Source: an uncultured Planctomycetia bacterium
GTDB lineage: Bacteria > Planctomycetota > MHYJ01 > WSZJ01 > CAZWCX01
Length of the DNA: 64,000 bases
Direction: 5' to 3'
Assembly: GCA_964632945.1 (NCBI GenBank)
Contig: CAZWCX010000020.1
Coordinates: 8,596 to 72,595, forward strand
Part shown: positions 10,941-38,300 of the stretch, piece after piece
Numbering within the stretch: position 1 is the stretch's first letter
Layout: each line of letters opens with the position of its first letter
Notes under the pieces: model-generated
What the model was told of the DNA's origin: nothing
The model's database searches: none
Seen by the model: the letters and a program-made list of their open reading frames with translations, nothing else
Position numbers and translations under genes: made by a program

Positions 10941-13886
10941 TCAACGGTTCTCGGGGCGGGGCAGGAGACGACGGAGCCGCGGCTCCGGCTCGAGGAGCCG
11001 AAGCTCGACTCCGTGCTTGACCGCCTGCCGCAGGCACAGTCCGGCTTCGACGATTTGACCGCATCGTTCATGGGCGCGGGCAAGCGCAAGCCAGGCCTGC
11101 GGAGAGTCCGGATGCACGAGCGCAGCGGCGGCGGCGCGCGCCCGGGCGGGCCCGGGATCTTTCCCGGCAAGGGCCGCGACGGACTCTTCGATCAGTCTGT
11201 GCGCGACGGCCGGCGCGCAGGCGGCCACCCTCGTCCCGACCGGGCCGGCTTCCTCCACGGGGGCAAGAGGGAGCCCGTGTTCGCCCCGCTGCCAGGCCTC
11301 CCAGCGCTCGCCCAGCGCGGGCGGGGCGTACCGCCGGGCGGCTTCCGTGAAGGCCTCGACCGCCGGGCCCTCGCGTCCCGCCGCGATCATGACGAATCCG
11401 AGCGCCACCGCCGGCTCGGGCCGGGCTTGGTCCAGGCGGGCGGCGGCGGCGAGACAGCGCTCGGCCTCGTCCACACGACCCGCGCGCGCATGCAGAATTC
11501 CCGATGCGAACCAGGCTTCGCCATCGCGCGGCCGGGAGGCGATCGCCCGCCCGAGGAACGCTGCGGCTTCGTCGCTCCGACCGAGCCGGAGAGCCAGCCG
11601 GCCGCCGATGAGGGCGAGGAGGCCGTCCTCGCGACGTTCGCTCGACGCCCGGGCGACGGCCTCCGCGGCCTCGCCGGCTCGTCCCGCGTCCGCCAGCGCG
11701 TCCGCGAGCCGGATCCGTTCCGCCCCCGCTTCGGGGGAAGTGCCCTCGCGATCCACCGGGCGGACGAGCGCCGCGCAGGCGCGAGCCGTCAAATCAGGGT
11801 CCGTCCCCCGCCCGGCCGCGACCGCCTCCGCCAGGGTCGCCGGGTCTTCGGGCCCGGCCGCCCATGCGCGCGCGAGCGCGGCCTCGGCCTCCCGCACCCG
11901 CCCCGCCGCGCGGTGGGCCGACGCCAGGTGAGCCCAGAGACTCGCCTCGTCCGGAAGCCGTTCCGCCCAGGTCGCGAGCCGCGTTGTGGGGTCCTGCCCG
12001 TGCCAGCAGCGCAACCGGAACCCGGCCTCGCCCAGCATGCGAATGTCTCGGGCGGCCGGATGCAGTTGGAGTCGGAGCGCGACGTCCAGGGCTTCCGCCG
12101 CCTCCTCCGCCTTTCCCGCCGCCAACAGGACCTCGGCGCGGACCGAAAACGCCGCGGCGCCGCGGGGAGATCCAAGCAGGAGCCGCTCGCTGGTGTCCAG
12201 CGCCTCCCGAAGGTCGGGGACCCCGGCCAGAAGCAGGGCGCGGACGTACACGTACAACACCTCCGGTCGCGCCTCCTGCTCCGCGAGCAGCGCGCGCGCC
12301 GCGACGAGAGCGCCTTCCGCGTCGCCGGCGCGGAGCGACGCGCGAACCCGCGAGGCGAGGGCGAACCCGTGCGCCGGCCGGGCGGAGAGCCGCCGGGCCG
12401 CCTCCCGGCCCGCGGCCACCCGGTCTTCGCACTCGCGCGCATAGCCGCGCTCCAACAGGCGGTCCGCGTACGCCTGGATCCGATACAGCGTCCGATCGGT
12501 GTCCGGGTCGCGCGCCACGAGGATGTCCAGATCCTGCCCGGCGGTCCCCAAGTCGCCGAGAGCCTCCGCAACCACGGCGCGCGTCTGGCGGGCGTCCCAC
12601 AGGTCCGGAGCCTCGGCGACGATCCGGTCCAGCTCTTCACGCAATCGGGCTGCGCGAGCCGCCCAGGTGTCGATCGGTTCCGTCCCGCATGCGTTCCACT
12701 CGTGCAGCACCTCGCGGTAGCGTCCGTGCAGGGTGTCGAGTCGTCTCGCCTCCCGGTCGAGCTTCGCCGCATGCTCCACTTCCAGGACCGAGTAATAGAG
12801 CACCCCCGCACTCACGGTGAGCACCAGCGCGCCCACCGCCGCGGTGAGAGGCAGCTTCCGGCGCGCAACCCGCGCGACCCGTCCCAGGAAAGAGGGCGGG
12901 CGCGCGGCGATCGGCAGCCCTTCCAGGAAGCGAAGAGTGTCGTCCGCGAGGGCCTCCGCGGAGGGGTAGCGGCGCGCCGGGTCCTTCTCCAGGCACTTGA
13001 GGCACAGGGTCTCGACGTCGGCGCTCACATCCGCGTGGAGCCGGCGCGGCGCCTCCGGGAGGGTGTGCACGACGTCGTGCAGCACCCGCGGCGTCGGTCC
13101 GACGAACGGCGGCCGACCGGTCAGAAGCGTGTAGAGCACGGCCCCGAGGGAATACACGTCACTGCGCGCGTCCACCTGCTCGAGGCGACCCAGCGCCTGT
13201 TCCGGCGGCATGTAGGCTGGGGTGCCGAGCAAGGTTCCCTCCAGCGTGAGCAACGATTCGCGCGAGAGGTCCTTGGCGAGCCCGAAGTCGGTGATGAGGA
13301 CCCGGCCGTCCCCGGTCAGCAGCAGGTTCTGGGGCTTGAGGTCGCGGTGGACCACCCCTTCGGCGTGGGCGTAGGCGAGCGCGAGGGCGACTTCGTGAAT
13401 CAGTTCGAGGGCGCGGCGGGGGGTGGGCCGTCCGCGTCGCGCCAGGTCATCGACCGTCTCTCCGATGATATAGTCCATCGAGTAGTAGTGGAGATCCCCA
13501 TCCTGGCCCACGTCATGAATGGCCACGATTCCGGGATGATGCAGACGCGCCGCGGCCTGCGCCTCGCGGTGGAACCGCTGCACCCCCTCCGCGTCGGCAG
13601 GACCCCGGGCGCGCAGCACCTTGAGGGCGACGGTCCGGTTGAGGTCGCGCTGGCGGGCGAGATAGACCACTCCCATCGCGCCCGAGCCGAGCTCTCCCAG
13701 AATCTCATAGGCTCCGATCGATGGCGGAGCCGGCGCCGTGGAGGGGGACGGCGGAGGGACCGCCGGGGCCGCGGCAAGGGCGGTTTCGACCGGTCCCCCC
13801 GACGGCGTCCGGAGGACCGTGGGGTTGACACCCGCAGACGAGTCAGGCGACCCGGCGGGCGCCGGGGGTGTGGCGTCCTGCGGCAT
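10941..13886 (-). CDS. Ser/Thr protein kinase with a C-terminal TM/TPR-like helical repeat region
   Basis: Complete Hanks kinase motifs: GSGAMGVVY, VALKVL, HRDLKPQNLLL, DFGLAKD, GTPAYMPPE. These are followed by a hydrophobic segment and about 550 aa of alpha-helical Ala/Leu/Arg-rich repeats. The start ATG is at 13884-13886 (MPQDATPP), preceded by a GGAGAA SD. Confidence 0.8.
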   Translation of the reverse strand: MPQDATPPAPAGSPDSSAGVNPTVLRTPSGGPVETALAAAPAVPPPSPSTAPAPPSIGAYEILGELGSGAMGVVYLARQRDLNRTVALKVLRARGPADAEGVQRFHREAQAAARLHHPGIVAIHDVGQDGDLHYYSMDYIIGETVDDLARRGRPTPRRALELIHEVALALAYAHAEGVVHRDLKPQNLLLTGDGRVLITDFGLAKDLSRESLLTLEGTLLGTPAYMPPEQALGRLEQVDARSDVYSLGAVLYTLLTGRPPFVGPTPRVLHDVVHTLPEAPRRLHADVSADVETLCLKCLEKDPARRYPSAEALADDTLRFLEGLPIAARPPSFLGRVARVARRKLPLTAAVGALVLTVSAGVLYYSVLEVEHAAKLDREARRLDTLHGRYREVLHEWNACGTEPIDTWAARAARLREELDRIVAEAPDLWDARQTRAVVAEALGDLGTAGQDLDILVARDPDTDRTLYRIQAYADRLLERGYARECEDRVAAGREAARRLSARPAHGFALASRVRASLRAGDAEGALVAARALLAEQEARPEVLYVYVRALLLAGVPDLREALDTSERLLLGSPRGAAAFSVRAEVLLAAGKAEEAAEALDVALRLQLHPAARDIRMLGEAGFRLRCWHGQDPTTRLATWAERLPDEASLWAHLASAHRAAGRVREAEAALARAWAAGPEDPATLAEAVAAGRGTDPDLTARACAALVRPVDREGTSPEAGAERIRLADALADAGRAGEAAEAVARASSERREDGLLALIGGRLALRLGRSDEAAAFLGRAIASRPRDGEAWFASGILHARAGRVDEAERCLAAAARLDQARPEPAVALGFVMIAAGREGPAVEAFTEAARRYAPPALGERWEAWQRGEHGLPLAPVEEAGPVGTRVAACAPAVAHRLIEESVAALAGKDPGPARARAAAAALVHPDSPQAWLALARAHERCGQIVEAGLCLRQAVKHGVELRLLEPEPRLRRLLPRPENR

Positions 13887-14000
13887 CGCGACCGCGTTCT
13901 CCCATCGACGGGTGACGGCAACCGAGGCCCGACCCCCGACCCGCCTTCGGGAGACGGGGAGGGCTTTTCCCCGCATTCGAAGTGCGGCGGGGCCATCCCG

Positions 14001-14282
14001 TCACTCTTGATGCCCCTCGATCTGGATCGTCATCGTCCGGCGCGCCGTTTCCACGCCGTCCCATTCCTCGGTGATCTCGAGCGTCAAGTCGAACATGTCG
14101 ACATGGTAAATGCGCTGGTACTCCTCGGACTTTCCGTCCACGTCCACGGCCCCCTTCATCCGCAGCCAGTATTCGCCCGGCCGCTCCATGTTCTTGGAGG
14201 CCTCCTGGATGGCGAGCTGGATCAACGCCTCCTCGTTTCCCACGCGGATGCGAAACTCGCCGTGGTCCGGTTTCTCGAGCAT
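14001..14282 (-). CDS. Small (93 aa) dodecin-like / DUF1458-like protein
   Basis: MLEKPDHGEFRIRVGNEEALIQLAIQEASKNMERPGEYWLRMKGAVDVDGKSEEYQRIYHVDMFDLTLEI matches the beta-alpha-beta-beta pattern and spacing of dodecin-family proteins. GGAGG lies directly upstream of the ATG at 14280-14282. The rest of track ORF 14001..14909 is R/G-rich and I rejected it. Confidence 0.5.
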   Translation of the reverse strand: MLEKPDHGEFRIRVGNEEALIQLAIQEASKNMERPGEYWLRMKGAVDVDGKSEEYQRIYHVDMFDLTLEITEEWDGVETARRTMTIQIEGHQE

Positions 14283-14449
14283 CGAGAACCTCCGGGCGAG
14301 GAGGACATCGCGCCCTGCGCCTGCGTCGGCGGCCCACGCGCGGGCCGCCGCGTGTCCGTCGGGGGACCGACCCACGGCCCCGGGGAGGTCGGAGCGCCGG
14401 TCCGCGATCCGGACGTCGCGAGACGCAGCGATCCGCCCCCGTCCGCATG

Positions 14450-14740
14450 CTAGTTTGACCTTTCTTCCGTCCCAACGCAAGCCCGCTCCGGCCGCAGGAG
14501 CGATGACTCGACCCCCGGAAGCCGCAGGACCCCGTCGATCCGATACCGAATGCGCACGCCTGCGGGGAACCACTCGAGGTGTAGGTCGCTGGCGTCTCGC
14601 CGAATCGCGTCGAGCAGAACCGTATCGATGAAGGCGCCGCCCGGCCGGTCCAGGCCGGACGGGGCATCGGCTTCGGCCGTCAGATCGAGTACGCCGGTGG
14701 CGGCGCGGGCCGTGATCGGTGCGGGGGCATCCATGAGCAT
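14450..14740 (-). pseudogene. Remnant of a GspE/PilB-type (T2SS/T4P) secretion ATPase gene. Only about 50 aa of the N-terminal region of the ATPase domain remain.
   Basis: AFIDTVLLDAIRRDASDLHLEWFPAGVRIRYRIDGVL closely resembles the conserved PilB/GspE segment (…ILTDAIKRKASDIHIEP…RVRFRIDGVL). The frame then stops after ~20 more residues, and no Walker box follows in any minus frame. Confidence 0.5.
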
Positions 14741-15002: not shown

Positions 15003-16853
15003 TCATCGGCGCGGTCGTGGCGCCGAGGTCGGGTGCTCACCGGCGGGAGGGGTCGTCAGGGCTCCCACGAAGCACGCTCTCCCCCGCTTCTTTCTTCGCG
15101 AAATGGGCGCGACGGTGAATGCCTGCGCGGCGGAGAAGGCCGTCGCGTTTCCCAGCGTATCCCGCGCCCGAATCCTCCAGAACAAGTTCCCGGTGCCGAA
15201 CGACCTCACGGCCGCGCGCACGTGAGGCTCCTCCACCGTGAGCTGGAAGAGCACCGTGTCGAACAGGGCCGACGCCGAGACCTGCAGGTCGTAGTTCAGG
15301 ATCCCGTTCGGATCCGCCGCCGCCGACCAGACGAAGTCCACGAATTCGACCGCGCCGACGTTCACGCCGCCCACCGGAGACTGAGGTACCGGAGCCGCTC
15401 CGGCCGTGGTATCGATCGTGAAATCGGTTTCCGCCGAGTAGTCTCGAATCGCCTCCGCGCGCCCGGAAGGATACTCGCGGCTGAACAGGTCGACTCCCGC
15501 GGCCGCACTCCCGCCATCGCGATAGCGAACCTGCCAGAAGTACGTGCCGTCGGGAAGCGCGGGAATCGTCACCCGCGTGAGGTCGCCGCCGGTCACGCCG
15601 GAGTCGAACACCGTCACCGACCAGTCCGCGGGAGATCCCGCCGCCCGGACCCGCCATTGACTGGCCGTGTGGAGATCGAAGGCCGGAGGACCGGCGGCTC
15701 CATTCGGATCCGCGAAGGCGGAGGAGGACAGGGTCGGTGTCGAAGTCGCCATGAGCGCCCCGGGTGCGGGGCCAAGATTGACCGGCTGCGCGGGGTGGAA
15801 ATTGACCGCCCGGTCGAGGAGCGTTCCCGCGCCGCCGGATGCCCCCGGCGGACCGCCTGGATCGGGGCCCGGAGCGCCGCCGGCCCCTCCGGACGGCACC
15901 GGCGGCAGGATCCCGGTGACGGTGTCGCGAAGAATCTTGATCCGGCCCCCGCCTCCGCCCGCGCCGCCGCCCGAGGGATCGATGCTGGGTCCCGCCCCGG
16001 AGACGCCGCCGGCGCCCGCACCACCGTCCGCGCGCACGATCGCCGCCGCCCCGAATCGCAAGTCCGGCGCGCACAGCAGGATCCCCCCGCCCGAGCCTCC
16101 ACCCCCACCGCCCGCGCCGGTCCCGTCCGCAGGCGCAATCCCCGCATTGCCGCCCGCGCCGTTCATCGACAGCGTCCCGTTCACGAACAACGATTCCTGG
16201 GCGATCAGCAGCAGGCTCGCCCCACCCGCGCCCCCATCCCCGCCCGTCGCTCCGGGGAGGTCTCCGCCACCGCCGCCGCCTCCGGAACCGGGGTTGAGGT
16301 CCTGATCGGGGGGCGGAGCCGCGGGGGTGTTGGCCGCGGCGGCAAACACCGGCGGCGCCGGATTGTCGTGGGCGGGACCGCCGGGGCCCGTGGCGCCGGC
16401 GCCATGCCCCCCCGCTCCGCCATGCCCCCCACCACCGCCACCGTCCCGGCTATTGGCAGCGGCCCCCGTGCCTCCGCCCGCTCCACTCCCGTTCGTCGAT
16501 GGCACCGTGGGAGGACCGCCGATCCCGCCGGCGCCCCCGGCGCCGTCTCCGCGAACCGCCCCGTCGATCACGATCACCCGCGCGCGAATGACCAGTCGAT
16601 TCCCCGTCGAGGGCGCGTCGCCCGTCACCGTCACCGTCACGCCGGTTGAAATCGTAAACGTGTCGATGTTGAAGTACTCCCCCTCCATCGCCTGATCCGC
16701 GGCAATCGTGAGGTTGCCGCCGCCCCCGTCCATCGCGGCATTGGGGCCCGACGGGGCCTGCGCCCGCGCCTCCTGCGGCGCCAACACCCCGAGACAAGCC
16801 CCAAGCCACCCGCACGCGGCGGCGGTGTACCACGCCCGGACCCCGATTCTCAT
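15003..16853 (-). CDS. Large secreted glycine-rich repeat protein with C-terminal Fn3-like domains
   Basis: Signal peptide MRIGVRAWYTAAACGWLGACLGVLAPQEARAQA. About 350 aa of G-rich repeats follow (GGAGG...IxIxA...GxGG, probably beta-helix-like), then two Fn3-like modules (DGTYFWQVRYRD...; ILNYDLQVSA...FWRIRARDTLGNATAFSAAQAFTV). The start ATG at 16851-16853 is preceded by AGGAGG and overlaps the stop of the upstream gene (16850-16852). Confidence 0.6.
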   Translation of the reverse strand: MRIGVRAWYTAAACGWLGACLGVLAPQEARAQAPSGPNAAMDGGGGNLTIAADQAMEGEYFNIDTFTISTGVTVTVTGDAPSTGNRLVIRARVIVIDGAVRGDGAGGAGGIGGPPTVPSTNGSGAGGGTGAAANSRDGGGGGGHGGAGGHGAGATGPGGPAHDNPAPPVFAAAANTPAAPPPDQDLNPGSGGGGGGGDLPGATGGDGGAGGASLLLIAQESLFVNGTLSMNGAGGNAGIAPADGTGAGGGGGGSGGGILLCAPDLRFGAAAIVRADGGAGAGGVSGAGPSIDPSGGGAGGGGGRIKILRDTVTGILPPVPSGGAGGAPGPDPGGPPGASGGAGTLLDRAVNFHPAQPVNLGPAPGALMATSTPTLSSSAFADPNGAAGPPAFDLHTASQWRVRAAGSPADWSVTVFDSGVTGGDLTRVTIPALPDGTYFWQVRYRDGGSAAAGVDLFSREYPSGRAEAIRDYSAETDFTIDTTAGAAPVPQSPVGGVNVGAVEFVDFVWSAAADPNGILNYDLQVSASALFDTVLFQLTVEEPHVRAAVRSFGTGNLFWRIRARDTLGNATAFSAAQAFTVAPISRRKKRGRACFVGALTTPPAGEHPTSAPRPRR

Positions 16854-17845
16854 CGCCGAACCCCTCCTGTCATCCATCCCGAATCTCCCGCCTCGAGGGC
16901 CAACGTTTGCCAGGCATTTCGAGCCGCCCCGCGGAGGTCTTCCCCCGCGGTTCGGCTCATCCACTGCAGCGAATCCAGAACCGCCGGGGTCACCGGTGGC
17001 CCGGGAAAGGCGCGACCGAGGCGCACCAGGGTCGTGAGGGCCTGGTCGGACGCCATGCCGCCGAGCCCGATCACCACGGCGAGGAGCGCCGGGGGCCCGA
17101 GCGCGCTGTCCGGGTGGAGCGCCGCCCCGGCCAGGCGCATCAGCACGCATTCCGCTTGCGGGTTCCCCACGCTCCTCAGCACCCGGCCCAGGGCTACCGC
17201 TTCCGCAAGGTCCCGGACCCCCTCCACCTCACCGGCCACCTGCGCCGCACACTCGGGGTGCACCCGGATCAGTCCGGCGATCGCCCCGATCACCCGAGGT
17301 TCCACGAACGGGGCGCCGGACGGCAAGGCCGCTTCCCGGCGACGCAAGCGACGAAACAGCATCGACACGAGGTCCTTCGGAGAGACGTGCGCGTCCCCAT
17401 CCGATCGCCGCTCCCCGGACCAGGGCGCGACCGCGCGGGGAACGCCCCCCCACCCGAACGCATCGGGCCCCTCCGCAAGCGGACTGGGATCCGATTCCAG
17501 CCCGCGTTGCCGCTGACGGTCTCTTCCCGGAGGGAGGGGCGTGACCGGCCGTGTCTCCCCGGCCGCCGTCGCCGATCCGCTCCCGACCGGCGCCGTGGCA
17601 ACGCCCCCCGCCGGCGTCGTTCGGCGGCGCCCCTCGCCCGGGCGCACCGAGCGGCGTCCGCCCGACCCGATCGACCGGCCGGGGCGCGCGCCGTCCTCCG
17701 GGGCCGCTTCCGGCGATCGCGTCCCCCCCCGACCGTCGCATGGCGCCCGGCGCTGCGCGTCGTCGTGCCGAAGTGTCACGATTGAAACGCCCGCGGAAAG
17801 AGCCAGGAAGACGGCCATCATCAGCTGCCGCATTCGCGCGTCCAT
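16850..17845 (-). CDS. Hypothetical membrane-anchored protein with a C-terminal helical (HEAT/ARM-like) domain
   Basis: The start ATG (17843-17845) encodes MDARMRQLMMAVFLALSAGVSIVTL, a TM or signal anchor. A Gly/Arg-rich linker and a ~170-aa alpha-helical C-terminus follow. The gene is translationally coupled to the Gly-rich protein gene. Confidence 0.5.
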   Translation of the reverse strand: MDARMRQLMMAVFLALSAGVSIVTLRHDDAQRRAPCDGRGGTRSPEAAPEDGARPGRSIGSGGRRSVRPGEGRRRTTPAGGVATAPVGSGSATAAGETRPVTPLPPGRDRQRQRGLESDPSPLAEGPDAFGWGGVPRAVAPWSGERRSDGDAHVSPKDLVSMLFRRLRRREAALPSGAPFVEPRVIGAIAGLIRVHPECAAQVAGEVEGVRDLAEAVALGRVLRSVGNPQAECVLMRLAGAALHPDSALGPPALLAVVIGLGGMASDQALTTLVRLGRAFPGPPVTPAVLDSLQWMSRTAGEDLRGAARNAWQTLALEAGDSGWMTGGVRR

Positions 17846-17853
17846 ACGACCTC

Positions 17854-18204
17854 CTATCGATGCTGCCAGCACCGACCGCCGCCCTTGACCATCCGACGGC
17901 ACGGGGCGCCGGTCGTCTTCGTCGGCGCGCCGCACGGATGGCTCATCCCGGAATCCGCCCCGGGGTCCGGCCTTGGCTCGGATCCGGGGCGGACCGCCGG
18001 GGCGTCGACCCGACCCGTCCGTTCCCATCGCTCGATCCGCGCCTCGAGTTGCTCGACGCGCAGCCACAACCGGTCGAACTCTTCGGCCGTGGGACGCCCG
18101 GCAGCAAGGGGGGCCGGATCCTCCTCTGCTCCCACGATCGCCCATCCGGCGAGCAGGACGAGCAGCGCCACGAGAACGGGTCCGTATCGACGGGGTGCGG
18201 GCAT
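17854..18204 (-). CDS. Small protein with N-terminal TM/signal, coiled coil and C-terminal Cys cluster
   Basis: MPAPRRYGPVLVALLVLLAGWAIVGA, then EEFDRLWLRVEQLEARIERWERTG (coiled coil), then the C-terminus CGAPTKTTGAPCRRMVKGGGRCWQH. The ATG at 18202-18204 is preceded by GGAGGAG. It is the first gene of the three-gene operon. Confidence 0.5.
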   Translation of the reverse strand: MPAPRRYGPVLVALLVLLAGWAIVGAEEDPAPLAAGRPTAEEFDRLWLRVEQLEARIERWERTGRVDAPAVRPGSEPRPDPGADSGMSHPCGAPTKTTGAPCRRMVKGGGRCWQHR

Positions 18205-18480
18205 GGGTGTCTCCTCCAATCGACAGACGAAGGGCGATTCCGAACCTCCCACCCCCGCGGCTTCCTGCCGCGGCGCACCGGCAGCGGGCGACGGCCGATT
18301 CCCCGGGAGCCCCCGGCGCGCCGGTGGGCGGAGACTACGACAACGGATGGACAGGATAGGTCCCGCAGGGCGGAAAATTTTTTCGGCCCCGGGATTTCGG
18401 GCTTGTGGGACCTCCCCTGTCACTCGGGTCCGCTACACTTCCTCCCGTCCGAATGCCGGTGCGAACGCGAAGGGACCGCC

Positions 18481-20889
18481 ATGGAAGATTCGCCGCTCTT
18501 CCTCGGGATCGACTTCGGGACTTCGAACTCGTCGGTCGCCCACGTCTACCATGATCCCCGCTACGCAGACCAAAAGGTCATTCCCGTACAGACGGTTCCC
18601 ATCCCCCTGGACGAGGCGGGGAACGTCGCCACCAACCGGATGCCGACGCTCCTTTCCACGCGGTTCGACGATCGGCGCGCCAAAGGATTTCTCGTCGGCT
18701 GGGAGTTCTTCCAGCGCTTCGGACGCCGCAAGAAGTCTCCCCTTCTCCGCCGCGGTCGCGACCTCTTCGAATCGGTGAAGTCCGACCTCGGCTCGTTCCG
18801 CATCTACCCGTACGCGGCCGCGCCGGAGTGCAACATGCCCGAGAAGGTGGCCGAGGCGGTGTTCGCGCGGTTGCTGCGGGAGGTCACGCCCCGACTTCCG
18901 GGAGCCAGCCCGGGCGCGGTCCGCACCGTCATCACGGTCCCCGCCTCGCTCAACGCCGAGGCGCGCCGCCAGACCCTCGAAGCCGCCGTGCGGGCCGGGC
19001 TCGTCGCCGACCGCGTCGAGCTGATCGATGAACCGATCGCCGCCCTGCTCGATCTCCTCAACGACCCGCGCTCCTGCGCCGTGCTCGCGCCGGGAAAGCC
19101 GACCCACGTCCTCGTGTTCGATTACGGCGGCGGAACCCTGGACCTCTGTCTGGTCCGGTGCGCATACGACTCATCCTGCTCGAGCGGACTTACCGCGGAA
19201 ACGCTGGCGATCTCCCGATATCGGCGCAACGGCGGGAATGATGTCGATCGGCAGGTGATGGCGCGCGTCGTCTGGCCTCAGGTCGAAGAGCAGCTGGGGA
19301 TCCTGCGGACCGGGTTGCGCGCGGACGTGCGCCAGGCGGTCGAGGACACCCTGACACCCACGGTCGCCCGGGGGCTCAAGGAAGGCATCTGCAAGCGGAT
19401 CGCCCGGGACGTCAGTGCAGGGAGACCTCTCTCCCGGCTGTCCGCAGACCTGAGCGAAATCGTGAAGTCCGACGGGACGTTCACCGACGAAGGCCTCCCG
19501 GCGCCGATCGAGGGAAAATTCAAGATCACCAAGGCCCAGTTCGACCAGGTGATGTCCCCGTTCCTGACCGCGCCCTCCCCGGATCCCGCGACGTGGGGCG
19601 ACGAACGCGTTCGTCACTCGCTGGTCCTGCCGATCCTCGAGACCCTCGACAAGGCGGGTCTCGGTCCGGGCGATCTCGACGTGCTCGTACTCCACGGCGG
19701 GAGCTGCCGGAACCCTCATGTCCAAGCGGGCCTGCTGGGGATCCTGGCCGAGGCGGACGGCCGATTTGCGCAAACCCGCATCGTGGAGACCCCCGACCTC
19801 GACACCTCCGTGGCCCGGGGCGCCGCCCTGGCCTGCTATTGGAAACACGCTCGAAAGGTCGAACTGATCCGGCCCGTGGTCGCGGAAGATGTGGGCATTC
19901 TGACGCTCGGGGAACAACCGGTCTGCCTGGTCGAGAGCGGCACGCCGCTGCCGTTTCCCGAACTGGGCATCCATGCGCACCCGGAAGACTTCTTCGTCCC
20001 GCAGGCCGGCCAGCGCGAGATGCTCGTCCCCTTCTATACGGGCCGCCATGAACAGCGGCGGTCGGGGTGCGTGCGCCTGCCGTTGCCCGACGGCGTGCGC
20101 AAGGGGGAGATCGTCCGGATCAAGCTGAGCATCGACCGCGACAAGGTCTTGCACTGGTGGTTCAGCCTCTCGGGCGGCGAGTTCCGCTCGGCCCCCTCCC
20201 TCGACGACCCCTGGACCCTCCGGGAGCCCGACGTGGCGGGTCAGGCGGTCCAGAGGCATCGGAAGGAGATGCGTGACCATCTGAGCCGGCACGGATCGGT
20301 TCCGCGCGGGATGGCGGTGCGGGAAGCGCTGCTTCTCTATCACGCGGGAGATCTGGCCGAGGCGGAACTGGCGATCTTCGATTGCGTTGCCGGCGGCTCC
20401 CACGATGCCGACACGGCCAATGCGCTGTCCCTGATCTACGGCCACACCGAGGATGCGGCGGCGGAGATGTACTTCGCCGAAATGGCGGCCCGGCTTGCGC
20501 CTCGGGATCCGATCATGCTGGGCAACTATGGCGTGGTGCTCGACGACAACGGCCGCGGGGACGAAGCGGTGGCCATGCTTCGCGCGGCGCTCTCGCTCGC
20601 GCCGGACCTCTCGTATCTTCACGAGCGCCTGGGGGACCGCCTGCGCGCGGGACGGGACGAGGAAGCGGCCGTGCGGGAGTATCGCGAAGCACTGCGGATC
20701 GTCGAGCGTCGGCTGTTGGAGCGACCGGAGCGTCCGCAGAATTGGAAGGAAGCCGCCCGATTGCACTACAAACTCGGCGAGTACGATCAGGCGCGGGACG
20801 CCGCCGGTCGCGCCTCGGACGCCGGGCTCAACGAACTGTACGGCGGAGACCATCGCATGCGGATCGCCGGACCGGACAGCGGATTCTGA
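18481..20889 (+). CDS. Atypical Hsp70-family ATPase (NBD + SBD-beta-like region) with a C-terminal TPR domain
   Basis: Hsp70 phosphate-1 motif LGIDFGTSNSSVAHV and the DxGGGTxD motif VLVFDYGGGTLDLCLV. A beta-sandwich-like region follows (IVRIKLSIDRDKVLHWWFSL), with TPR-like repeats at the C-terminus. The ATG is at 18481. The 310-aa N-terminal extension of track ORF 17551..20889 overlaps minus-strand genes and I rejected it. Confidence 0.75.
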   Translation: MEDSPLFLGIDFGTSNSSVAHVYHDPRYADQKVIPVQTVPIPLDEAGNVATNRMPTLLSTRFDDRRAKGFLVGWEFFQRFGRRKKSPLLRRGRDLFESVKSDLGSFRIYPYAAAPECNMPEKVAEAVFARLLREVTPRLPGASPGAVRTVITVPASLNAEARRQTLEAAVRAGLVADRVELIDEPIAALLDLLNDPRSCAVLAPGKPTHVLVFDYGGGTLDLCLVRCAYDSSCSSGLTAETLAISRYRRNGGNDVDRQVMARVVWPQVEEQLGILRTGLRADVRQAVEDTLTPTVARGLKEGICKRIARDVSAGRPLSRLSADLSEIVKSDGTFTDEGLPAPIEGKFKITKAQFDQVMSPFLTAPSPDPATWGDERVRHSLVLPILETLDKAGLGPGDLDVLVLHGGSCRNPHVQAGLLGILAEADGRFAQTRIVETPDLDTSVARGAALACYWKHARKVELIRPVVAEDVGILTLGEQPVCLVESGTPLPFPELGIHAHPEDFFVPQAGQREMLVPFYTGRHEQRRSGCVRLPLPDGVRKGEIVRIKLSIDRDKVLHWWFSLSGGEFRSAPSLDDPWTLREPDVAGQAVQRHRKEMRDHLSRHGSVPRGMAVREALLLYHAGDLAEAELAIFDCVAGGSHDADTANALSLIYGHTEDAAAEMYFAEMAARLAPRDPIMLGNYGVVLDDNGRGDEAVAMLRAALSLAPDLSYLHERLGDRLRAGRDEEAAVREYREALRIVERRLLERPERPQNWKEAARLHYKLGEYDQARDAAGRASDAGLNELYGGDHRMRIAGPDSGF

Positions 20890-20907: not shown

Positions 20908-21621
20908 ATGGCGAAATCAGCCCAATCGGGCCGGCGCATCGCCGGGCGCCGGGGAACTTCCGCGCGACGCGGATCCGCGTCCCGGCGCGCCCGCCGTCCG
21001 GCGCGTTCGCCGCGCGGGAAGACCGCACGGAAGGCCGCGGGCGGGGTCCGTCCCGCGAAGGTCACGCGCAAGCTCGCAAAGCCCTCGCGCCCGCCACGGT
21101 CGCCCGCCGCATCCCGCGCGCCGGCGAGTTCCGTCGACTCGCAGCGGATCCGGGAGATCCTGGTGCGCCTGGATCGAGCGCACGCCGATCTGGTCGCGAT
21201 CGGCGCCGAACTGCGCGCCGCCGCGCACGGGATCGGCGCCGCCGCCTGCGACACGTTGCGCGGGGAATGGCTGCGCAGCCTCCTGGAACGGGACCTCCTT
21301 CGGGACTTGCAGGTGGCGCGGCAGGGAGCGACGCCGGGGGAGAACCCGGCCGCCGCAGCCGGAGGGGATCGCCTCCTGCCGGAATCGATGTTGAATTGGC
21401 TGTGCGAGAAGCTCGACCTGTTTCCGTTGCTGACCGCCGGTGAAACGATCGAGGTCCCCGCGGCCTCCCTCGGCGATTTCGACTTCGACGGGTCCGTCCC
21501 CGCGGACGCCGGCGGCCTGATCGCCCTGCGGGTCGTCGTTCCCGGCCTGCGGCTCCGGGTGGGAAAGACCGTCGTCCTCCCGCCCCGCGTGGAGCGGATC
21601 GAACCGGTCGCGCCGACGTAG
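20908..21621 (+). CDS. Hypothetical protein with an Arg/Lys-rich N-terminal half and a mixed-composition ~120-aa C-terminal domain. It is a possible partner of the Hsp70-like gene.
   Basis: The ATG at 20908 has GGGAGGA 8 nt upstream and lies 19 nt after the Hsp70-like stop. The C-terminal half has mixed composition (ESMLNWLCEKLDLFPLLTAGETIEVP...), unlike the RRRR-type overlapping antisense ORFs. Confidence 0.45.
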   Translation: MAKSAQSGRRIAGRRGTSARRGSASRRARRPARSPRGKTARKAAGGVRPAKVTRKLAKPSRPPRSPAASRAPASSVDSQRIREILVRLDRAHADLVAIGAELRAAAHGIGAAACDTLRGEWLRSLLERDLLRDLQVARQGATPGENPAAAAGGDRLLPESMLNWLCEKLDLFPLLTAGETIEVPAASLGDFDFDGSVPADAGGLIALRVVVPGLRLRVGKTVVLPPRVERIEPVAPT

Positions 21622-33852: not shown

Positions 33853-34320
33853 CGAGACCGCGGGAGAGCGCTCCTCCCGCCGCGGCCGGATCGGGCCGAT
33901 GGCCACCCAGACGCCGCGCTCTCGTGGGCCGGCGGGAGGACAGGGCGTTCGGGTTTACGACCTCGATCCGCTGGTCCCGGACAACTTGCGTGCCCGTGAC
34001 TCCTGCGCCGGGATCGCGGACGACCGGAATTCGATCCGCCCTTGACCATGGCAGGCTGCGGCCGATACGCTGCTCGGAGCAGGCTGCGTGAGGCGTGGCG
34101 CTCCCGCATGAACGCGGCATCCTCGCTCGGGAACTCGACCCGGTGCGCCTCACGGTCGACGCCCGAAGCGAAGTCAGAGCCCTGGCCTTTCCGGAGGAGG
34201 CTCTGGAGCGCACCCAGAGTCGGGCGCCGGCGGTGTACGAGCACCGGATGCGCGCAGGGGCGATCGGACGACCCAGGGGGCGTGCGTGGACGGATGCGCG
34301 ACCGCGCTCCAGGAGAAGGC

Positions 34321-35244
34321 ATGAACGACGGGAAGCCCGGAGAGGCCAAACCCCTCGTGCCACGCGAGGCCCCCGCCTGCCAGGTCTGCGGCGAACCGCT
34401 TCACGGACGCGCGGTGGTGGAGTGCTGCCAGTGCGGCACTCCGCACCACCTGTCGTGCTGGCGGTTCAACAAGCGCTGTTCCATCTATGGCTGCGGGAGC
34501 CGAAGTTGCCGCCAGCCCGCCCCCTCGCCCGCCCTGAAGTCGGTCGGCCCGTTCGAAGTGAAGGTGAACCCAAGGTACCGGTCCTTCACTCCCCTGGACG
34601 CGATCTCCTTCACCACCGTGGTCGGGATCGCCGGGCTGATGATGCTCCTGGGCCTGCCGGTGGACGGCGTGGTGGGCCCGACCGCGCTCTTGCTGATCCC
34701 GGTGCTGATCGCCCTGCTCGCGGGGATCGATGAACGTCTTTCGGTCGATCCGACCCGCGGGACGATCGACCGCTCCCTGCGGATCAGAGGGCGGACGGTA
34801 TGGTCGGTTCCGGACTGGCTCCGGTTTTCCCGGGTGGTGGAACTCCATGTTCACCGCTGGACCCTGGACGGCATACGGCCGACGCAGATGTGGCAGTTGC
34901 AGGCGCTCCTCGACGACGGGTCCCGCACGAAGATCCTGACCGACTCCCATCCGGGCGGGCAGGGGGAACCCGAACTTCCCCGCATCGCCGAACAACTGGC
35001 GGAGATGGTCGATTGCACGGTTCGGCGGTTCGACGGCGCGGAGCCGCCGGATCGCGCCGAACTCGACGAGGCGGTGACCGCCTGGCGCGATTCCCGGGCC
35101 CTCCCGGCCGCGCCGGAGGCCGCCGGGCCGGATGCTCCCGCCGGCAGCGGCACCCCCGTTCGCGAGATCGTCTCCCCGTCCGCGGACGGCGAGCCGACGA
35201 CCGCGCGAGAGGGCGATTCCGGGACCGACGCCGAACGGCGCTGA
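34321..35244 (+). CDS. Membrane protein with an N-terminal RING/PHD-like treble-clef zinc finger
   Basis: CQVCGEPLHGRAVVECCQCGTPHHLSCWRFNKRCSIYGCGS gives the spacing C-x2-C-x11-C-x2-C-x4-H-x2-C-x6-C-x4-C. Two TM segments follow (ISFTTVVGIAGLMMLLGLPV; LLLIPVLIALLAGI). The ATG at 34321 has GGAGAAGG upstream. Confidence 0.55.
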   Translation: MNDGKPGEAKPLVPREAPACQVCGEPLHGRAVVECCQCGTPHHLSCWRFNKRCSIYGCGSRSCRQPAPSPALKSVGPFEVKVNPRYRSFTPLDAISFTTVVGIAGLMMLLGLPVDGVVGPTALLLIPVLIALLAGIDERLSVDPTRGTIDRSLRIRGRTVWSVPDWLRFSRVVELHVHRWTLDGIRPTQMWQLQALLDDGSRTKILTDSHPGGQGEPELPRIAEQLAEMVDCTVRRFDGAEPPDRAELDEAVTAWRDSRALPAAPEAAGPDAPAGSGTPVREIVSPSADGEPTTAREGDSGTDAERR

Positions 35245-35302: not shown

Positions 35303-38300
35303 CTACCCCTTTCCCTTCTTCACCGAGATGCCGGCCTCCTTGAGCCGGTAGTAGAACGTGCTGCGCGCGAGGCCGAGTCGCTGCGCGGCCTTTTCCACGC
35401 TTCCGCCGGCTTCGTCGAGCACGGCCTTGTACACGTCCGCCACGATCTGGTCGAAGGTCTTGTCGCGGATCGAGACCATTCCCTTCATGTCGATGGCCGC
35501 GCTCGAGCCGCCCCGCCGGCGGCCGCCGCCGTCCGCTCCGACCCCCGCTCCGGCGGGTCGATAGTTCGCGATCTCGGGGCTGATGTCCTCGAGCGTGATC
35601 GCCTCGCCGGCGAAGGCGAGTGCCCGCTTCACCTCATTTTCCAATTGCCGGATGTTCCCCGGCCACTCGAAGTCGACGATCCGCCGCATGGCGTCGCGCG
35701 CGACTTCCTTTTTCGGCGTGCCGCTCTCCGCGGCGTACTTCTCCAGGAAGTGCTCGATCAGCAGCGGCAGGTCGTCCCGGCGCTCCCGCAGCGGCGGCAG
35801 CCGCAGCGTGAAGACGTTCAGGCGGTAGTAGAGGTCCTCGCGGAACGTCCCCTCCTCCACCATCTTCTTCAGGTCCCGGTGGGTCGCGGCGATGATGCGG
35901 ACGTCCACCTTGATCGACTTCTTTCCGCCGACCGGACGGATCTCGCCCTCCTGGAGCACGCGCAGGAGCTTCTTCTGCATCTCCAGGCCCATCTCGCCGA
36001 TCTCGTCGAGGAAGAGGGTGCCGCCGTTGGCGAATGCGAACAACCCCTCCTTGTCTTTGTCCGCGCCGGTGAACGAGCCCTTGACGTGGCCGAAGAGCTC
36101 GCTTTCGAGCAGCGATTCCGGCAGCGCGCCGCAGTTTTCCGCGACGAACGGCTTGTCCTTGCGGGGGCCGTTGAAGTGGATCGCCTTGGCGACCAGTTCC
36201 TTTCCGGTGCCGCTTTCGCCGTGGATGATCACGGGGAAGTGGGTCTCGGTGATCTTGTCGAGGACCTTGAACAGTTCCTGCATCGCCTTGGAGCGGCCGA
36301 CGATGTTGCCGTAGGAGTACTTCGTGCGCAGCTGCTCCAGGCTGGTGGTGAGCGTGCGCTTGAGGAAGTCGGCCTCCTCCTTCTGGCGCGCGTACAGGCG
36401 CGAGTTTTCGATCGGGGCGGCGATCTTGTCGGCGAACTGGGCGAGCAGCTCCCGGTCCTCCTCGGTGAAGCGCTTGTTCCCGGCCAGATTATCCATGTAG
36501 ACGACGCCGATGGTCTCGCCTTCGAGGTGGATCGGCACCGACAGGATCGAGCGGATCTGCAGGTCCATGATCGAGTCCTGGCCGCGGAACTGGCTTTCGG
36601 CCAGCGCGTCGGTGACGACCGCGGGCTCGCCGGTGCGCGCGACCTGCTCGACGATGGTGCTCGAGAACTCGAACTGCGGAGAGCGGATCTCCTCGTCGTT
36701 GAAGTTGAGCGCAGTGACGGGTTTCAGCTTGCCGTCGACGCCGCGCAGCATGATGAAGCCGCGCTCGGCGCGAGTGACCTGGAGCATCATGCGCATGGTC
36801 AGTTCGAGGACCTTGTCGAGGTCGAGGCCGGCGTTGATGACCTTCATGAGCATGCCGAGGACGGTGATGCCGTCGCGGGAGACGACGAGCTGGTCGAGGT
36901 CGGCGTCCTGGGCGACCTTGCGCTGGACTTCGCGTTCGCTCTCGACGCCGGCCTCGAAGGTGAAGACGCAGTTGCGGCCGTTGCGTTTGGCGTTGTAGAC
37001 CGCCTCGTTCAGGCGTTCGCGTGTGGAAGTCAACGTCTGCGCGTCGGTCGGGCAGGTCAGGACGCCGACGCTGACGGTGACGTTGACGTCGCGGCCCGCG
37101 GCCTGGAAGGGCCAGGTGGCGATTTCGGTGCGCAGGCGGTTGGCCAGACGGACGGCCTCCACGCGTTCGGTCTCGGGCAGGACGACATCGAACTCGTCGC
37201 CTGCGCCGCGGCCGAGGACGTCGACGTTGCGGATCCCCTTGCGCAGGATGCCGCAGACCTCGCGCAGGATGTCGTTGCCCGCTTCGGCGCCGTGGAAGTC
37301 GTTGATCACCTGGAAGCGGTCCAGGTCGACGCGCAGGATCGAGACCAGGCGGCTGTAGCGCCGGCAGCGGTCGAGTTCGCGCTCGAGGATGCCGTCCACG
37401 TAGGCCGGAACGAAGGCGCCGCTCACGCGGTCGAAGACCATCTGCTGGTGCAGTCGCGCGTTGTCGAGGGCGACCGCGGCGTGGTCGGTCATGACCAGGA
37501 GGAGCGCGGCCTCGCGCTCGGCGAAGGCCTTTTCGGTGAACAGGCTGTCGAGGTAGAGCGCCCCGGCGATCGCCCCGCGCATGCGGATCGGGACGCAGAT
37601 GATCGAGCGCACGCGCAGTCCGGCGACGTCGCCGAGCGGAGCGAGGCGCTTGTCGGTCTGGGCGTTCGGCGTGAGCAGGATCTCGCCGGTCTCGATCACA
37701 CGTTCGGCGATCCCCTTGGAGATCTTGGTCGCCGGATCGTCGATGTCGCGACTGCCCAGGTTGCGCGAGACCTCGAACTGGAGGCGCCCGCCGGTGGCGC
37801 CGCCGGCGCCCCGCAGAATGAGGAAGCCGCGGTCGGCCCCGGTGATCTCGATCGCGGTGTCGATGATGTACTCGAGGACCTTGCGCGGATCCTGTTCCGC
37901 GCCGATCCGGCGGCCGACCTCGACCAGGCGCACGAGCTGCGAGAAGTCCTTCCCCACCGGCGAACCGGCGTGGTCGCGGACCAGGTTGGCGAACCAGCGG
38001 TCGGCCCCGGCGGAGGTGAAGTCGGCGGCGAGCGTGGTGGTCTCGTCCTTGCGCGACTGCACCTCGGTGTCGATTTTGGCCGCGAGTTCGACGGCCGCCT
38101 TGCGCCGGGGGTCGCGGGCGTACGCCTCGCGGTACTCTTCGGGCAGTTTGGCGGCGACCTGGGCAAAGACCTTGCGCACCTCCTCCGCGTGGAAGCCCGC
38201 CTTGAGCGGGTGGTTGCGCTTGCGCAGGACCTCGGCGAGCCCGGTGTGCGCCTGCCAGAGGAATTCCGGGTTTTTCACCGACTGGGCGAGTTCGCGCGCG

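What the first reader, a model, noticed from the sequence alone, without database searches (positions are those of the whole stretch)
15003..18204. Translationally coupled three-gene operon ending in a large secreted Gly-rich beta-helix-like / Fn3 protein
Three minus-strand genes have near-consensus AGGAGG Shine-Dalgarno sites and overlapping or adjacent stop/start codons (17857/17845 and 16850-16853).
- A 116-aa protein with a TM/signal segment, a heptad coiled coil and a C-terminal Cys cluster (CGAPTKTTGAPCRRMVKGGGRCWQH).
- A 331-aa TM-anchored protein with a helical-repeat C-terminus.
- A 616-aa secreted protein whose central ~350 aa are Gly-rich repeats (GGAGG…IxIxA…) resembling beta-helical adhesin or ice-binding-like repeats, followed by two Fn3-like modules.

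None of these has an obvious well-characterised homologue that I can recognise. The operon is divergently arranged from an atypical Hsp70.
Basis: partly seen in the sequence, partly recalled or inferred. Interest (0 to 1): 0.6.

Follow-up and report, generated by a model that had tools for sequence, protein, structure and literature searches.

The report
Three coupled genes; glycine-rich secreted protein
Three tightly packed genes for exported or membrane proteins are real. The largest belongs to an unnamed, widespread family of cell-surface proteins with an unusual glycine-rich domain plus two fibronectin-like modules, but the three-gene arrangement occurs only in this genome and its function is unknown.

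Summary
Three minus-strand genes (A 17854-18204, B 16850-17845, C 15003-16853) each have a GGAGG-type ribosome-binding site. The A stop lies inside B's site, and B and C share an ATGA overlap.

- **Coding:** all three are best read as coding. The called frame wins a six-frame codon test, and the NCBI gene calls are identical.
- **C:** it is not a GC-rich artefact. Full-length homologues at 37-43% identity share its layout: signal peptide, ~300-aa domain with 31% glycine, then two Fn3-like modules of the Pfam Ig_Rha78A_N type.
- **Glycine-rich domain:** AlphaFold2 models it confidently (pLDDT 75-97). It has no solved relative by sequence or Foldseek, and links by profile comparison to NCBIfam's AgmC N-terminal domain.
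- **Surface role:** relatives end in PEP-CTERM, T9SS or Cys+TM+Arg sorting tails, so this is a surface-protein family. The window copy has no such anchor.
- **A:** only its C-terminal CCCH motif is conserved, and it is weakly DUF5763-like.
- **B:** it is an orphan with a TM helix, a disordered linker and an all-helical C-terminal domain.
- **Gene order:** in the five loci of C relatives read, none of the neighbouring genes resembles A or B, so the order is not conserved.

Ice-binding, RTX and defence readings found no support. This is an ordinary finding of modest interest: a new member of an uncharacterised surface-protein family.

The parts
17854..18204 (-). Gene A, 116 aa: N-terminal signal peptide or TM anchor, short amphipathic/coiled-coil helix, C-terminal CCCH motif
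   Evidence: Translation. The identical gene call exists in an NCBI record. The called frame is best of six.
18211..18217 (-). Shine-Dalgarno GGAGGAG of gene A
   Evidence: Sequence
18130..18180 (-). A residues 9-25: hydrophobic segment (signal peptide with possible VGA|EE cleavage site, or N-in anchor)
   Evidence: Kyte-Doolittle 19-residue mean above 2. The cleavage site is my inference.
18016..18090 (-). A residues 39-63: about 3 heptads with a/d positions F43 L46 V50 L53 I57 W60
   Evidence: Read from the translation
17860..17934 (-). A residues 91-115: CCCH motif C-x10-C-x9-C-x2-H (CGAPTKTTGAPCRRMVKGGGRCWQH)
   Evidence: 13 invariant columns across 16 proteins. Homologues give weak sub-threshold hits to Pfam DUF5763.
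17850..17855 (-). Shine-Dalgarno AGGAGG of gene B, overlapping the TAG stop of A (17854-17856)
   Evidence: Sequence
16850..17845 (-). Gene B, 331 aa, orphan: TM helix (about aa 3-30), disordered R/G/P/A-rich linker (31-150), all-alpha C-terminal domain (156-321)
   Evidence: Translation. No homologue except itself. Single-sequence AlphaFold2 model.
16883..17380 (-). B residues 156-321: about nine helices forming a helical-repeat-like domain
   Evidence: pLDDT 70-90. Foldseek gives only weak matches to designed helical repeats and ARM/HEAT proteins, best E 0.027. Codon score is 0.216 against -0.039 for the antisense frame.
16863..16868 (-). Shine-Dalgarno AGGAGG of gene C
   Evidence: Sequence
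16850..16853 (-). ATGA stop/start overlap between B and C
   Evidence: Sequence
15003..16853 (-). Gene C, 616 aa: exported Gly-rich domain followed by two Fn3-like modules
   Evidence: Translation. Full-length homologues P0099, P0105 and P0114.
16761..16853 (-). C residues 1-31: Sec-type signal peptide with probable cleavage at ARA|QA
   Evidence: Helix 6-24 in the model. Two homologues (P0105, P0114) have signal peptides ending in A-x-A|Q. The cleavage site is my inference.
15804..16721 (-). C residues 45-350: Gly-rich domain (31% Gly). It contains four G5-G7 runs (a G4 run lies just upstream, at residues 43-46) and repeated units of G-run, 11-residue beta strand, turn, short strand.
   Evidence: pLDDT 75-97. 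Composition and G runs. hhalign gives 99% probability to P0002, which hits NCBIfam gliding_AgmC_N at 6.7e-24.
15498..15803 (-). C residues 351-452: Fn3-like module 1 (Ig_Rha78A_N type)
   Evidence: 40-49% identical to repeats present up to 19 times per protein. Those repeats hit PF25788 at up to 1e-94.
15108..15440 (-). C residues 472-582: Fn3-like module 2
   Evidence: Weak PF25788 hit. The family profile hits the Fn3 domains of Eph receptor and titin. Foldseek Fn3 hits. Related to module 1 at E 2e-4.
15006..15107 (-). C residues 583-616: basic Cys-containing tail (RRKKRGRACFVGALTTPPAGEHPTSAPRPRR) with no hydrophobic anchor
   Evidence: No TM segment in any frame downstream. Homologues carry G6-C-[LF]-x-S, then a TM segment, then RR at this position.

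Best explanation
This is a lineage-specific, translationally coupled cluster of three envelope or exported proteins.

Gene C is exported by the Sec pathway. It is a cell-surface or extracellular binding or structural protein. A compact glycine-rich domain forms the head: a stack of about six parallel 11-residue strands interleaved with ordered Gly-rich segments, related to the AgmC N-terminal domain. Two Fn3-like (Ig_Rha78A_N-type) modules form a stalk below it.

Its relatives carry interchangeable C-terminal sorting signals, which marks the family as surface-displayed. The window copy has lost that anchor. It is therefore either released or held at the envelope by other proteins, and the co-translated partners A and B are the obvious candidates:
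- A is a small exported or anchored protein with a short coiled coil and a CCCH, probably zinc-binding, knuckle.
- B is membrane-anchored, with a disordered linker and a helical-repeat domain.

Shown here: the gene structure, the coupling signals, the homology and architecture of C, the conservation of A's motif, and the orphan status of B. Inferred: export, surface location, adhesive or structural role, and any A-B-C interaction.
For: - **Coupling signals:** SD sites and stop/start coupling are present.
- **Coding:** the called frames are best of six and match the NCBI gene calls exactly.
- **Homologues of C:** three full-length homologues have conserved non-Gly positions along the whole length, for example D42, N62, I63, A91, L216, P263, W400, W509, W559.
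- **Structure of C:** the Gly-rich domain is modelled at pLDDT 75-97 from only 18 sequences.
- **Link to AgmC_N:** hhalign gives 99% probability (E 1.7e-18) to P0002, whose same region hits NF047640 at 6.7e-24.
- **Sorting signals in relatives:** PEP-CTERM in P0016 and P0018, a T9SS tail in P0207, and Cys+TM+RR in P0099, P0105, P0114 and the L004 paralogue. The window tail lacks any TM segment.
- **Fn3 assignment:**
- **A's motif:** invariant in 16 proteins. It also occurs twice in small signal-peptide proteins, so it is used outside the cytoplasm.
- **B's C-terminal domain:** it folds as helices at pLDDT 70-90 from a single sequence and carries a clear codon signal.
Against: - No experiment or expression data were available.
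- A and B are never found next to C relatives in the five loci examined, and B has no homologue anywhere. Functional linkage therefore rests only on coupling in one genome.
- C itself does not hit NF047640 even at E<=10 and hits PF25788 only at E 0.19.
- Gly-rich composition can inflate profile scores.
- The Fn3 part of the model is low-confidence (pLDDT 30-60).
- The codon signal of all three genes is weak, and absent in B residues 1-150.
- No signal-peptide or topology predictor could be run.
Confidence: 0.55

Rival explanations
1. The three genes are real but functionally unrelated. They are merely packed together, and the coupling reflects genome compaction. C acts alone as a released extracellular protein.
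For: C relatives stand alone or as tandem paralogues in L004-L007 and L009, with no A- or B-like neighbour. A's motif occurs in unrelated contexts, including a phage-like locus with RadC and SSB. B is unique.
Against: An ATGA overlap and a stop codon embedded in the next gene's SD are the usual marks of co-translated partners. C has lost the anchor its relatives carry, while A and B both have membrane or signal segments.
Confidence: 0.3
2. C is a gliding-motility or substrate-adhesion component in the manner of Myxococcus AgmC.
For: There is a transitive profile link to NCBIfam gliding_AgmC_N. The window is rich in Ser/Thr kinases and sigma-54 activators. Relating that richness to myxobacteria-like genomes is from my own knowledge, and the taxonomy was not established.
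Against: C does not hit the model directly. Only positions 144-410 of the 412-position model are covered, and the strongest hit, P0002, lies on an archaeal contig. No Glt, Agl or other motility genes are in the window. No open-access paper on AgmC was found.
Confidence: 0.08
3. B, or all three ORFs, is a spurious product of 74% GC DNA.
For: B has no homologue. Its antisense ORF 16907-17785 has a similar GC3. B codons 1-150 give no frame discrimination. Codon scores for all three genes are low.
Against: C and A have conserved homologues or motifs. B has an SD and is coupled at both ends. It also has a clean TM helix and a helical domain with pLDDT 70-90, and its C-terminal half scores 0.216 against -0.039 for the antisense frame. 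The antisense product is R/P/H-rich with no features.
Confidence: 0.05
4. C is an ice-binding, antifreeze or RTX-type calcium beta-roll protein.
Against: No Pfam or NCBIfam family of any kind matched, so no ice-binding family did. There is no GGxGxDxUx nonapeptide: only one GGxGxD match and none with the hydrophobic position. No PDB hit to IBP or RTX folds appeared.
Confidence: 0.02

Closest known systems
NCBIfam NF047640 gliding_AgmC_N (N-terminal domain of 'adventurous gliding motility protein AgmC')
   Same: Both have the same succession of poly-Gly runs and xIxLxAxxIxIxG strands. The C-family profile aligns to P0002 residues 31-329 at 99% probability, and that region hits model positions 144-410 at E 6.7e-24.
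   Different: C gives no direct hit, even at E<=10. It lacks the first ~140 model positions. It carries Fn3-like modules rather than the AgmC architecture. There is no motility context.
Pfam PF25788 Ig_Rha78A_N (Fn3-like Ig domain), and Fn3 generally
   Same: C residues 351-452 and 472-582 are 30-49% identical to tandem repeats that hit PF25788 strongly. Profile and Foldseek hits go to Fn3 domains.
   Different: C's own Pfam score (12.4 bits) is below the 27.4-bit cut-off. Module 1 is more divergent. There is no glycoside hydrolase attached.
Unnamed family of full-length homologues (P0099, P0105, P0114; metagenomic)
   Same: They share the signal peptide, the Gly-rich domain and the Fn3-like modules, at 37-40% identity in the MAFFT alignment (39-43% by phmmer) with collinear alignment.
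   Different: They end in G6-C-[LF]-x-S, a TM segment and RR. The window protein has only the 'ACFVGA' remnant and no TM. Some have one extra Fn3-like module. None of the genes neighbouring them resembles A or B.
Pfam PF19067 DUF5763 (Cys/His motif of unknown function)
   Same: The CCCH spacing matches. Homologues of A's motif hit it at E 0.002-0.16.
   Different: All hits are below the 26.3-bit cut-off, and A itself gives no hit. No structure or function is known.
HEAT/ARM-type helical repeat proteins
   Same: B residues 156-321 are modelled as about 9 stacked helices. Foldseek lists designed helical repeats, alphaRep, beta-catenin and TOG.
   Different: No Pfam repeat hit. The best Foldseek E is only 0.027. 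The model comes from a single sequence.
Polyglycine-II-containing domains (ALK/LTK glycine-rich domain, snow-flea antifreeze, PE_PGRS)
   Same: C has hexa- and hepta-glycine runs modelled as ordered non-helix, non-strand segments with pLDDT around 90. The comparison itself is from my own knowledge only.
   Different: There is no sequence or Foldseek match. Model coordinates could not be inspected, so PGII geometry is untested.

Membership tests
Translationally coupled operon | Same strand, SD at each start, and stop/start overlap or a gap under 10 nt | tested here: met
   GGAGGAG, AGGAGG and AGGAGG sites; an 8-nt gap with the stop inside the SD; an ATGA overlap
Translationally coupled operon | A single transcript covering all three genes | not testable with these tools
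   No expression data. Consensus scans found no internal terminator and no informative promoter.
Translationally coupled operon | Gene order conserved in other genomes | tested here: not met
   Five loci of C relatives were read; none of the neighbouring genes resembles A or B. B has no homologue.
Pfam PF25788 Ig_Rha78A_N / Fn3 | HMM score above the gathering cut-off (27.4 bits) | tested here: not met
   12.4 bits, E 0.19, residues 557-582 only
Pfam PF25788 Ig_Rha78A_N / Fn3 | Significant homology to bona fide members | tested here: met
   phmmer E down to 1e-172 against multi-repeat proteins that hit PF25788 at 1e-94, 2e-41 and 6e-23
Pfam PF25788 Ig_Rha78A_N / Fn3 | Fn3 beta-sandwich fold | tested here: inconclusive
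   Model pLDDT is 30-66 in this part. Foldseek nevertheless gives Fn3 hits at E 8e-4 to 0.1, and the profile hits Eph and titin Fn3.
NCBIfam NF047640 gliding_AgmC_N | HMM hit at the curated cut-off (275 bits) | tested here: not met
   No hit at E<=1 (full protein) or E<=10 (domain alone)
NCBIfam NF047640 gliding_AgmC_N | Remote homology of the Gly-rich domain | tested here: met
   hhalign 99%, E 1.7e-18, to P0002, which hits the model at 6.7e-24 / 84.6 bits, itself below the cut-off. Compositional bias is a caveat.
NCBIfam NF047640 gliding_AgmC_N | Role in gliding motility | not testable with these tools
   No motility genes were found in the window, and the organism was not identified.
Sorted surface proteins (PEP-CTERM, MYXO-CTERM-like, T9SS CTD) | C-terminal sorting signal: motif, TM helix and basic cluster, or a CTD | tested here: not met
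   Relatives have them. The window tail has no hydrophobic segment in any frame.
Right-handed parallel beta-helix adhesins or lyases | Regular 3-strand rungs; match to known beta-helix families or structures | tested here: inconclusive
Ice-binding proteins and RTX beta-roll proteins | Ice-binding Pfam domain, or GGxGxDxUx nonapeptide repeats | tested here: not met
   No Pfam hit and no nonapeptide
Pfam PF19067 DUF5763 | HMM score above 26.3 bits | tested here: not met
   A gives no hit. Homologues score 11.9-17.9 bits.
Pfam PF19067 DUF5763 | Conserved Cys/His pattern | tested here: met
   C91, C102, C112 and H115 are invariant, along with the G92/A93/T95/G99/V106-G110 columns
HEAT/ARM helical repeats (gene B) | Repeat HMM hit or a significant structural match | tested here: inconclusive
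   No Pfam hit. The helical model has pLDDT 70-90. Foldseek best E is 0.027.
Known anti-phage defence systems | Match to PADLOC models | tested here: not met
   No hit for A, B, C, the Hsp70-TPR protein or the 237-aa neighbour

The most novel reading that the evidence does not exclude
The Gly-rich domain may be an unsolved fold class: a parallel beta-sheet packed against ordered polyglycine segments. It is shared by bacteria, archaea and giant viruses. In this genome, a family member that lost its own C-terminal membrane anchor may have acquired a dedicated two-protein tether or assembly module: the orphan TM-linker-helical-repeat protein B and the exported CCCH-knuckle protein A. That would be a new way of displaying this surface protein.
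Probability: 0.12. Interest if true: 0.55.

Novelty: new member of a known kind. Interest (0 to 1): 0.3.

Why it matters
The finding adds one divergent member to a widespread family of surface proteins that has no name in Pfam. The family's Gly-rich domain has no solved structure, and its only label is an NCBIfam model tied to an uncharacterised gliding-motility gene. If the domain really combines a beta-sheet with ordered polyglycine segments, it would be a useful target for structure determination and for understanding how 30%-glycine sequences fold. The local A-B-C arrangement matters only if A and B prove to be tethering or assembly partners. At present it is a one-genome curiosity.

Tried and rejected
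- **Family scans:** Pfam and NCBIfam on A, B and C gave nothing above threshold. PADLOC and PHROGs gave nothing.
- **Exact look-up:** the window proteins are not on record, so the source contig and organism were not retrieved. Cluster look-ups gave no names.
- **Genome-contig scans:** the Hsp70-TPR neighbour and the C-family alignment both returned no confirmed relative. One alignment was too diverse to search with. The second scan relied on two short patterns, one of them all-glycine, so I do not take it as evidence of absence.
- **tblastn:** C against plasmids and A against phages found no match.
- **PDB profile searches:** nothing for the Gly-rich domain or for A's motif.
- **Promoters and terminators:** sigma-70, terminator and sigma-54 scans of the region were uninformative.
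- **Literature:** nothing found on AgmC or DUF5763. The polyglycine and beta-solenoid searches returned silk, ALK-unrelated and DUF3494-type ice-binding papers that do not concern this family.
- **Frameshift idea rejected:** I checked whether a frameshift hides a TM anchor after C's tail. No hydrophobic segment exists in any frame.
- **HEAT link rejected:** I checked whether B is related to the HEAT_2 protein near the L004 homologue. There is no similarity.


Full report
**Observation.**
- Gene A (18204->17854, 116 aa) is preceded by GGAGGAG.
- A's TAG stop is the first three bases of TAGGAGG. This serves as the ribosome-binding site for gene B, whose ATG lies 8 nt downstream at 17845.
- B (331 aa) ends in an ATGA overlap with the start of C (16853), 9 nt after AGGAGG.
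- GGAGG occurs 0.0029 times per base-strand in this window. Three sites correctly placed at three starts is about a 2e-5 event by chance.
- The same three proteins, with the same starts, are in the public protein collection from one NCBI contig of 73,942 bp. Each is a singleton at 90% identity.

**Are they genes?** The window is about 70% GC and full of spurious ORFs, so this needed testing.
- GC3 is 0.79-0.81 in the called frames. However, the antisense frame of B has a similar profile, so GC3 alone does not decide.
- A codon log-likelihood model trained on 14 Pfam-supported genes of the window puts the called frame first of six for A, B and C. The scores are lower (0.04-0.09 per codon) than for the training genes (0.24-0.41).
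- B's C-terminal half scores 0.216 against -0.039 for the antisense frame. B's first 150 codons are uninformative.
For A it is refuted by a sharply conserved motif. For B the evidence is indirect: SD, coupling at both ends, a clean TM helix, and a helical domain predicted at pLDDT 70-90 from a single sequence.

**Gene C.** A word-indexed search found only weak partial hits. An exhaustive HMMER scan of 1.84 billion representatives found 1352 hits.
- Most hits are giant proteins carrying up to 28 copies of modules homologous to C residues ~350-450 and ~472-582. These repeats are Pfam Ig_Rha78A_N (PF25788; E 1e-94 in P0082, 2e-41 in P0094, 6e-23 in P0134), which is an Fn3-like domain.
- C's own Pfam score is sub-threshold. 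Its two modules are related to each other (E 2e-4).
- The family profile hits Eph-receptor and titin Fn3 domains in the PDB. Foldseek with the model returns Fn3 domains.
- Three proteins (P0099, P0105, P0114) align with C over essentially its whole length at 37-40% identity in the MAFFT alignment (39-43% by phmmer). Many non-glycine columns are invariant. C is therefore a real member of a conserved, unnamed family.

**The Gly-rich domain (residues ~45-350, 31% Gly).**
- It has no Pfam or NCBIfam hit, even when scanned alone at E<=10.
- It is built from recurring units: a G5-G7 run, an 11-residue strand of the type xLLLIAxxxLxV, a Gly/Asn turn, a 3-4-residue strand, then another Gly-rich stretch.
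- AlphaFold2 with only 18 aligned sequences models it at pLDDT 75-97, including long segments that DSSP labels neither helix nor strand. A Pro/Ala-rich insertion (155-185) is low-confidence.
- In BFVD the best matches are uncharacterised giant-virus proteins, at E 7e-11 to 2e-8 over about 300-390 columns.
- The one named link is indirect. P0002, a weak hit of C, matches NCBIfam NF047640 'gliding_AgmC_N' at 6.7e-24. The C-family profile aligns to that same region of P0002 at 99% probability. P0002 sits on an archaeal contig beside SecY and archaeal ribosomal proteins, so the domain is not tied to myxobacterial gliding.
- That the ordered Gly runs are polyglycine-II helices, as in ALK/LTK or snow-flea antifreeze, is my inference from memory. 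I could not check it without coordinates.

**Surface location.**
- Relatives with this domain end in PEP-CTERM (P0016, P0018), a T9SS sorting domain (P0207), or a G6-C-[LF]-x-S motif followed by a TM helix and Arg residues (P0099, P0105, P0114 and the L004 paralogue). Interchangeable anchors are typical of surface-displayed domains.
- C has an N-terminal signal-like helix, with an A-x-A|Q site like those of P0105 and P0114.
- Its tail (RRKKRGRACFVGALTTPPAGEHPTSAPRPRR) keeps only a 'CF' remnant and has no hydrophobic segment in any frame.
- C is therefore probably released, or retained by something else.

**Gene A.** Only the last 25 residues are conserved. The motif is C-G-A-x-T-K-x-G-x-P-C-x-R-x-V-K-G-G-G-R-C-W-Q-H, with 13 invariant columns in 16 proteins.
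- It occurs at the C-terminus of ~180-aa Pyrinomonadaceae proteins that have an N-terminal zinc ribbon, a TM segment and a linker.
- It occurs twice in ~95-aa signal-peptide proteins, one of which lies in a phage-like locus with RadC and SSB.
- Homologues give weak hits to Pfam DUF5763. There is no solved structure and no literature.
- The rest of A is a hydrophobic N-terminus and about three heptads.

**Gene B.** It has no homologue in 5.8 billion proteins. The single-sequence model shows a TM helix, a 120-residue disordered Arg/Gly/Pro-rich linker and nine helices. These resemble designed helical repeats and ARM/HEAT proteins only weakly (best E 0.027).

**Context and conservation.**
- Five loci of C relatives (L004-L007 and L009) show no A- or B-like gene and no recurrent neighbour. 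L004 has tandem paralogues followed by a Phenol_MetA_deg outer-membrane protein.
- The window around the cluster encodes signalling proteins: a Ser/Thr kinase-TPR, sigma-54 activators, a hybrid histidine kinase, a GGDEF protein, and the divergent Hsp70-like-TPR protein starting at 18481. There are no secretion, sorting or motility systems.
- No sigma-54 promoter lies upstream of A.
- The source organism could not be identified.

**Verdict.** This is a real, translationally coupled three-gene cluster.
- Its main product is a new, anchor-less member of an uncharacterised surface-protein family, made of an AgmC_N-like Gly-rich domain plus Fn3-like modules.
- The most likely role is extracellular binding or structure. 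A and B are possible, but unproven, envelope partners.
- Ice-binding, RTX, defence-system and artefact readings are not supported.
- The unsolved Gly-rich fold is the only feature with some wider interest.

Noticed in passing
window 35303-42043 (-): A 2246-aa ORF (GC3 0.92) fuses a Ser/Thr kinase, an AAA_16/STAND-like ATPase, MalT-like TPRs, GGDEF, two GAF domains, a sigma-54 activator AAA+ domain and an HTH_8, all in one protein. A kinase-to-enhancer-binding-protein fusion of this size is unusual.
   Followed up: partly
window 14450-14740 (-): A 96-aa ORF matches only the first ~40 positions of the Pfam T2SSE secretion ATPase (E 3e-5, just below the cut-off). No ATPase core follows in any frame. 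It looks like a gene remnant just downstream of gene C.
   Followed up: partly
window 14001-14282 (-): A small 93-aa ORF (MLEKPDHGEFRIRV...) has locally lower GC (0.58-0.65) and the strongest codon score in the region (0.485). It has no Pfam family.
   Followed up: partly
window 18481-20889 (+) and 20908-21621 (+): The divergent neighbour is an 802-aa protein with a partial Hsp70 ATPase match (E 4e-13) and C-terminal TPRs. It is followed 18 nt later by a 237-aa protein with no Pfam family. Neither matches PADLOC.
   Followed up: partly
L001 2155-2451 (also L002, L003): A 98-aa signal-peptide protein carries two copies of the CCCH motif of gene A. It lies among many small genes with RadC, SSB and DUF7178, a phage- or mobile-element-like context. 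It hits phrog_32665, of unknown function.
   Followed up: partly
L004 8001-13720: The closest full-length homologue of C occurs as two tandem paralogues (765 and 772 aa), followed by a Phenol_MetA_deg-family outer-membrane protein. A HEAT_2 protein and a sigma-54 response regulator lie on the other strand.
   Followed up: partly
L007 7001-9652: The AgmC_N-like Gly-rich domain also occurs in an 883-aa CARDB protein on an archaeal contig, next to SecY and archaeal ribosomal proteins and followed by MG2- and PKD-domain proteins.
   Followed up: no
window 34042-35244 (+): A 400-aa protein has a prokaryotic RING finger (Prok-RING_1, E 1.5e-6, just below the cut-off). It lies next to the giant signalling protein.
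   Followed up: no
window 10941-13976 (-) / 11013-14453 (+): The 1011-aa Ser/Thr kinase-TPR gene is shadowed by an 1146-aa antisense ORF with an almost identical GC1/2/3 profile. This shows that GC3 cannot tell sense from antisense in this genome.
   Followed up: yes
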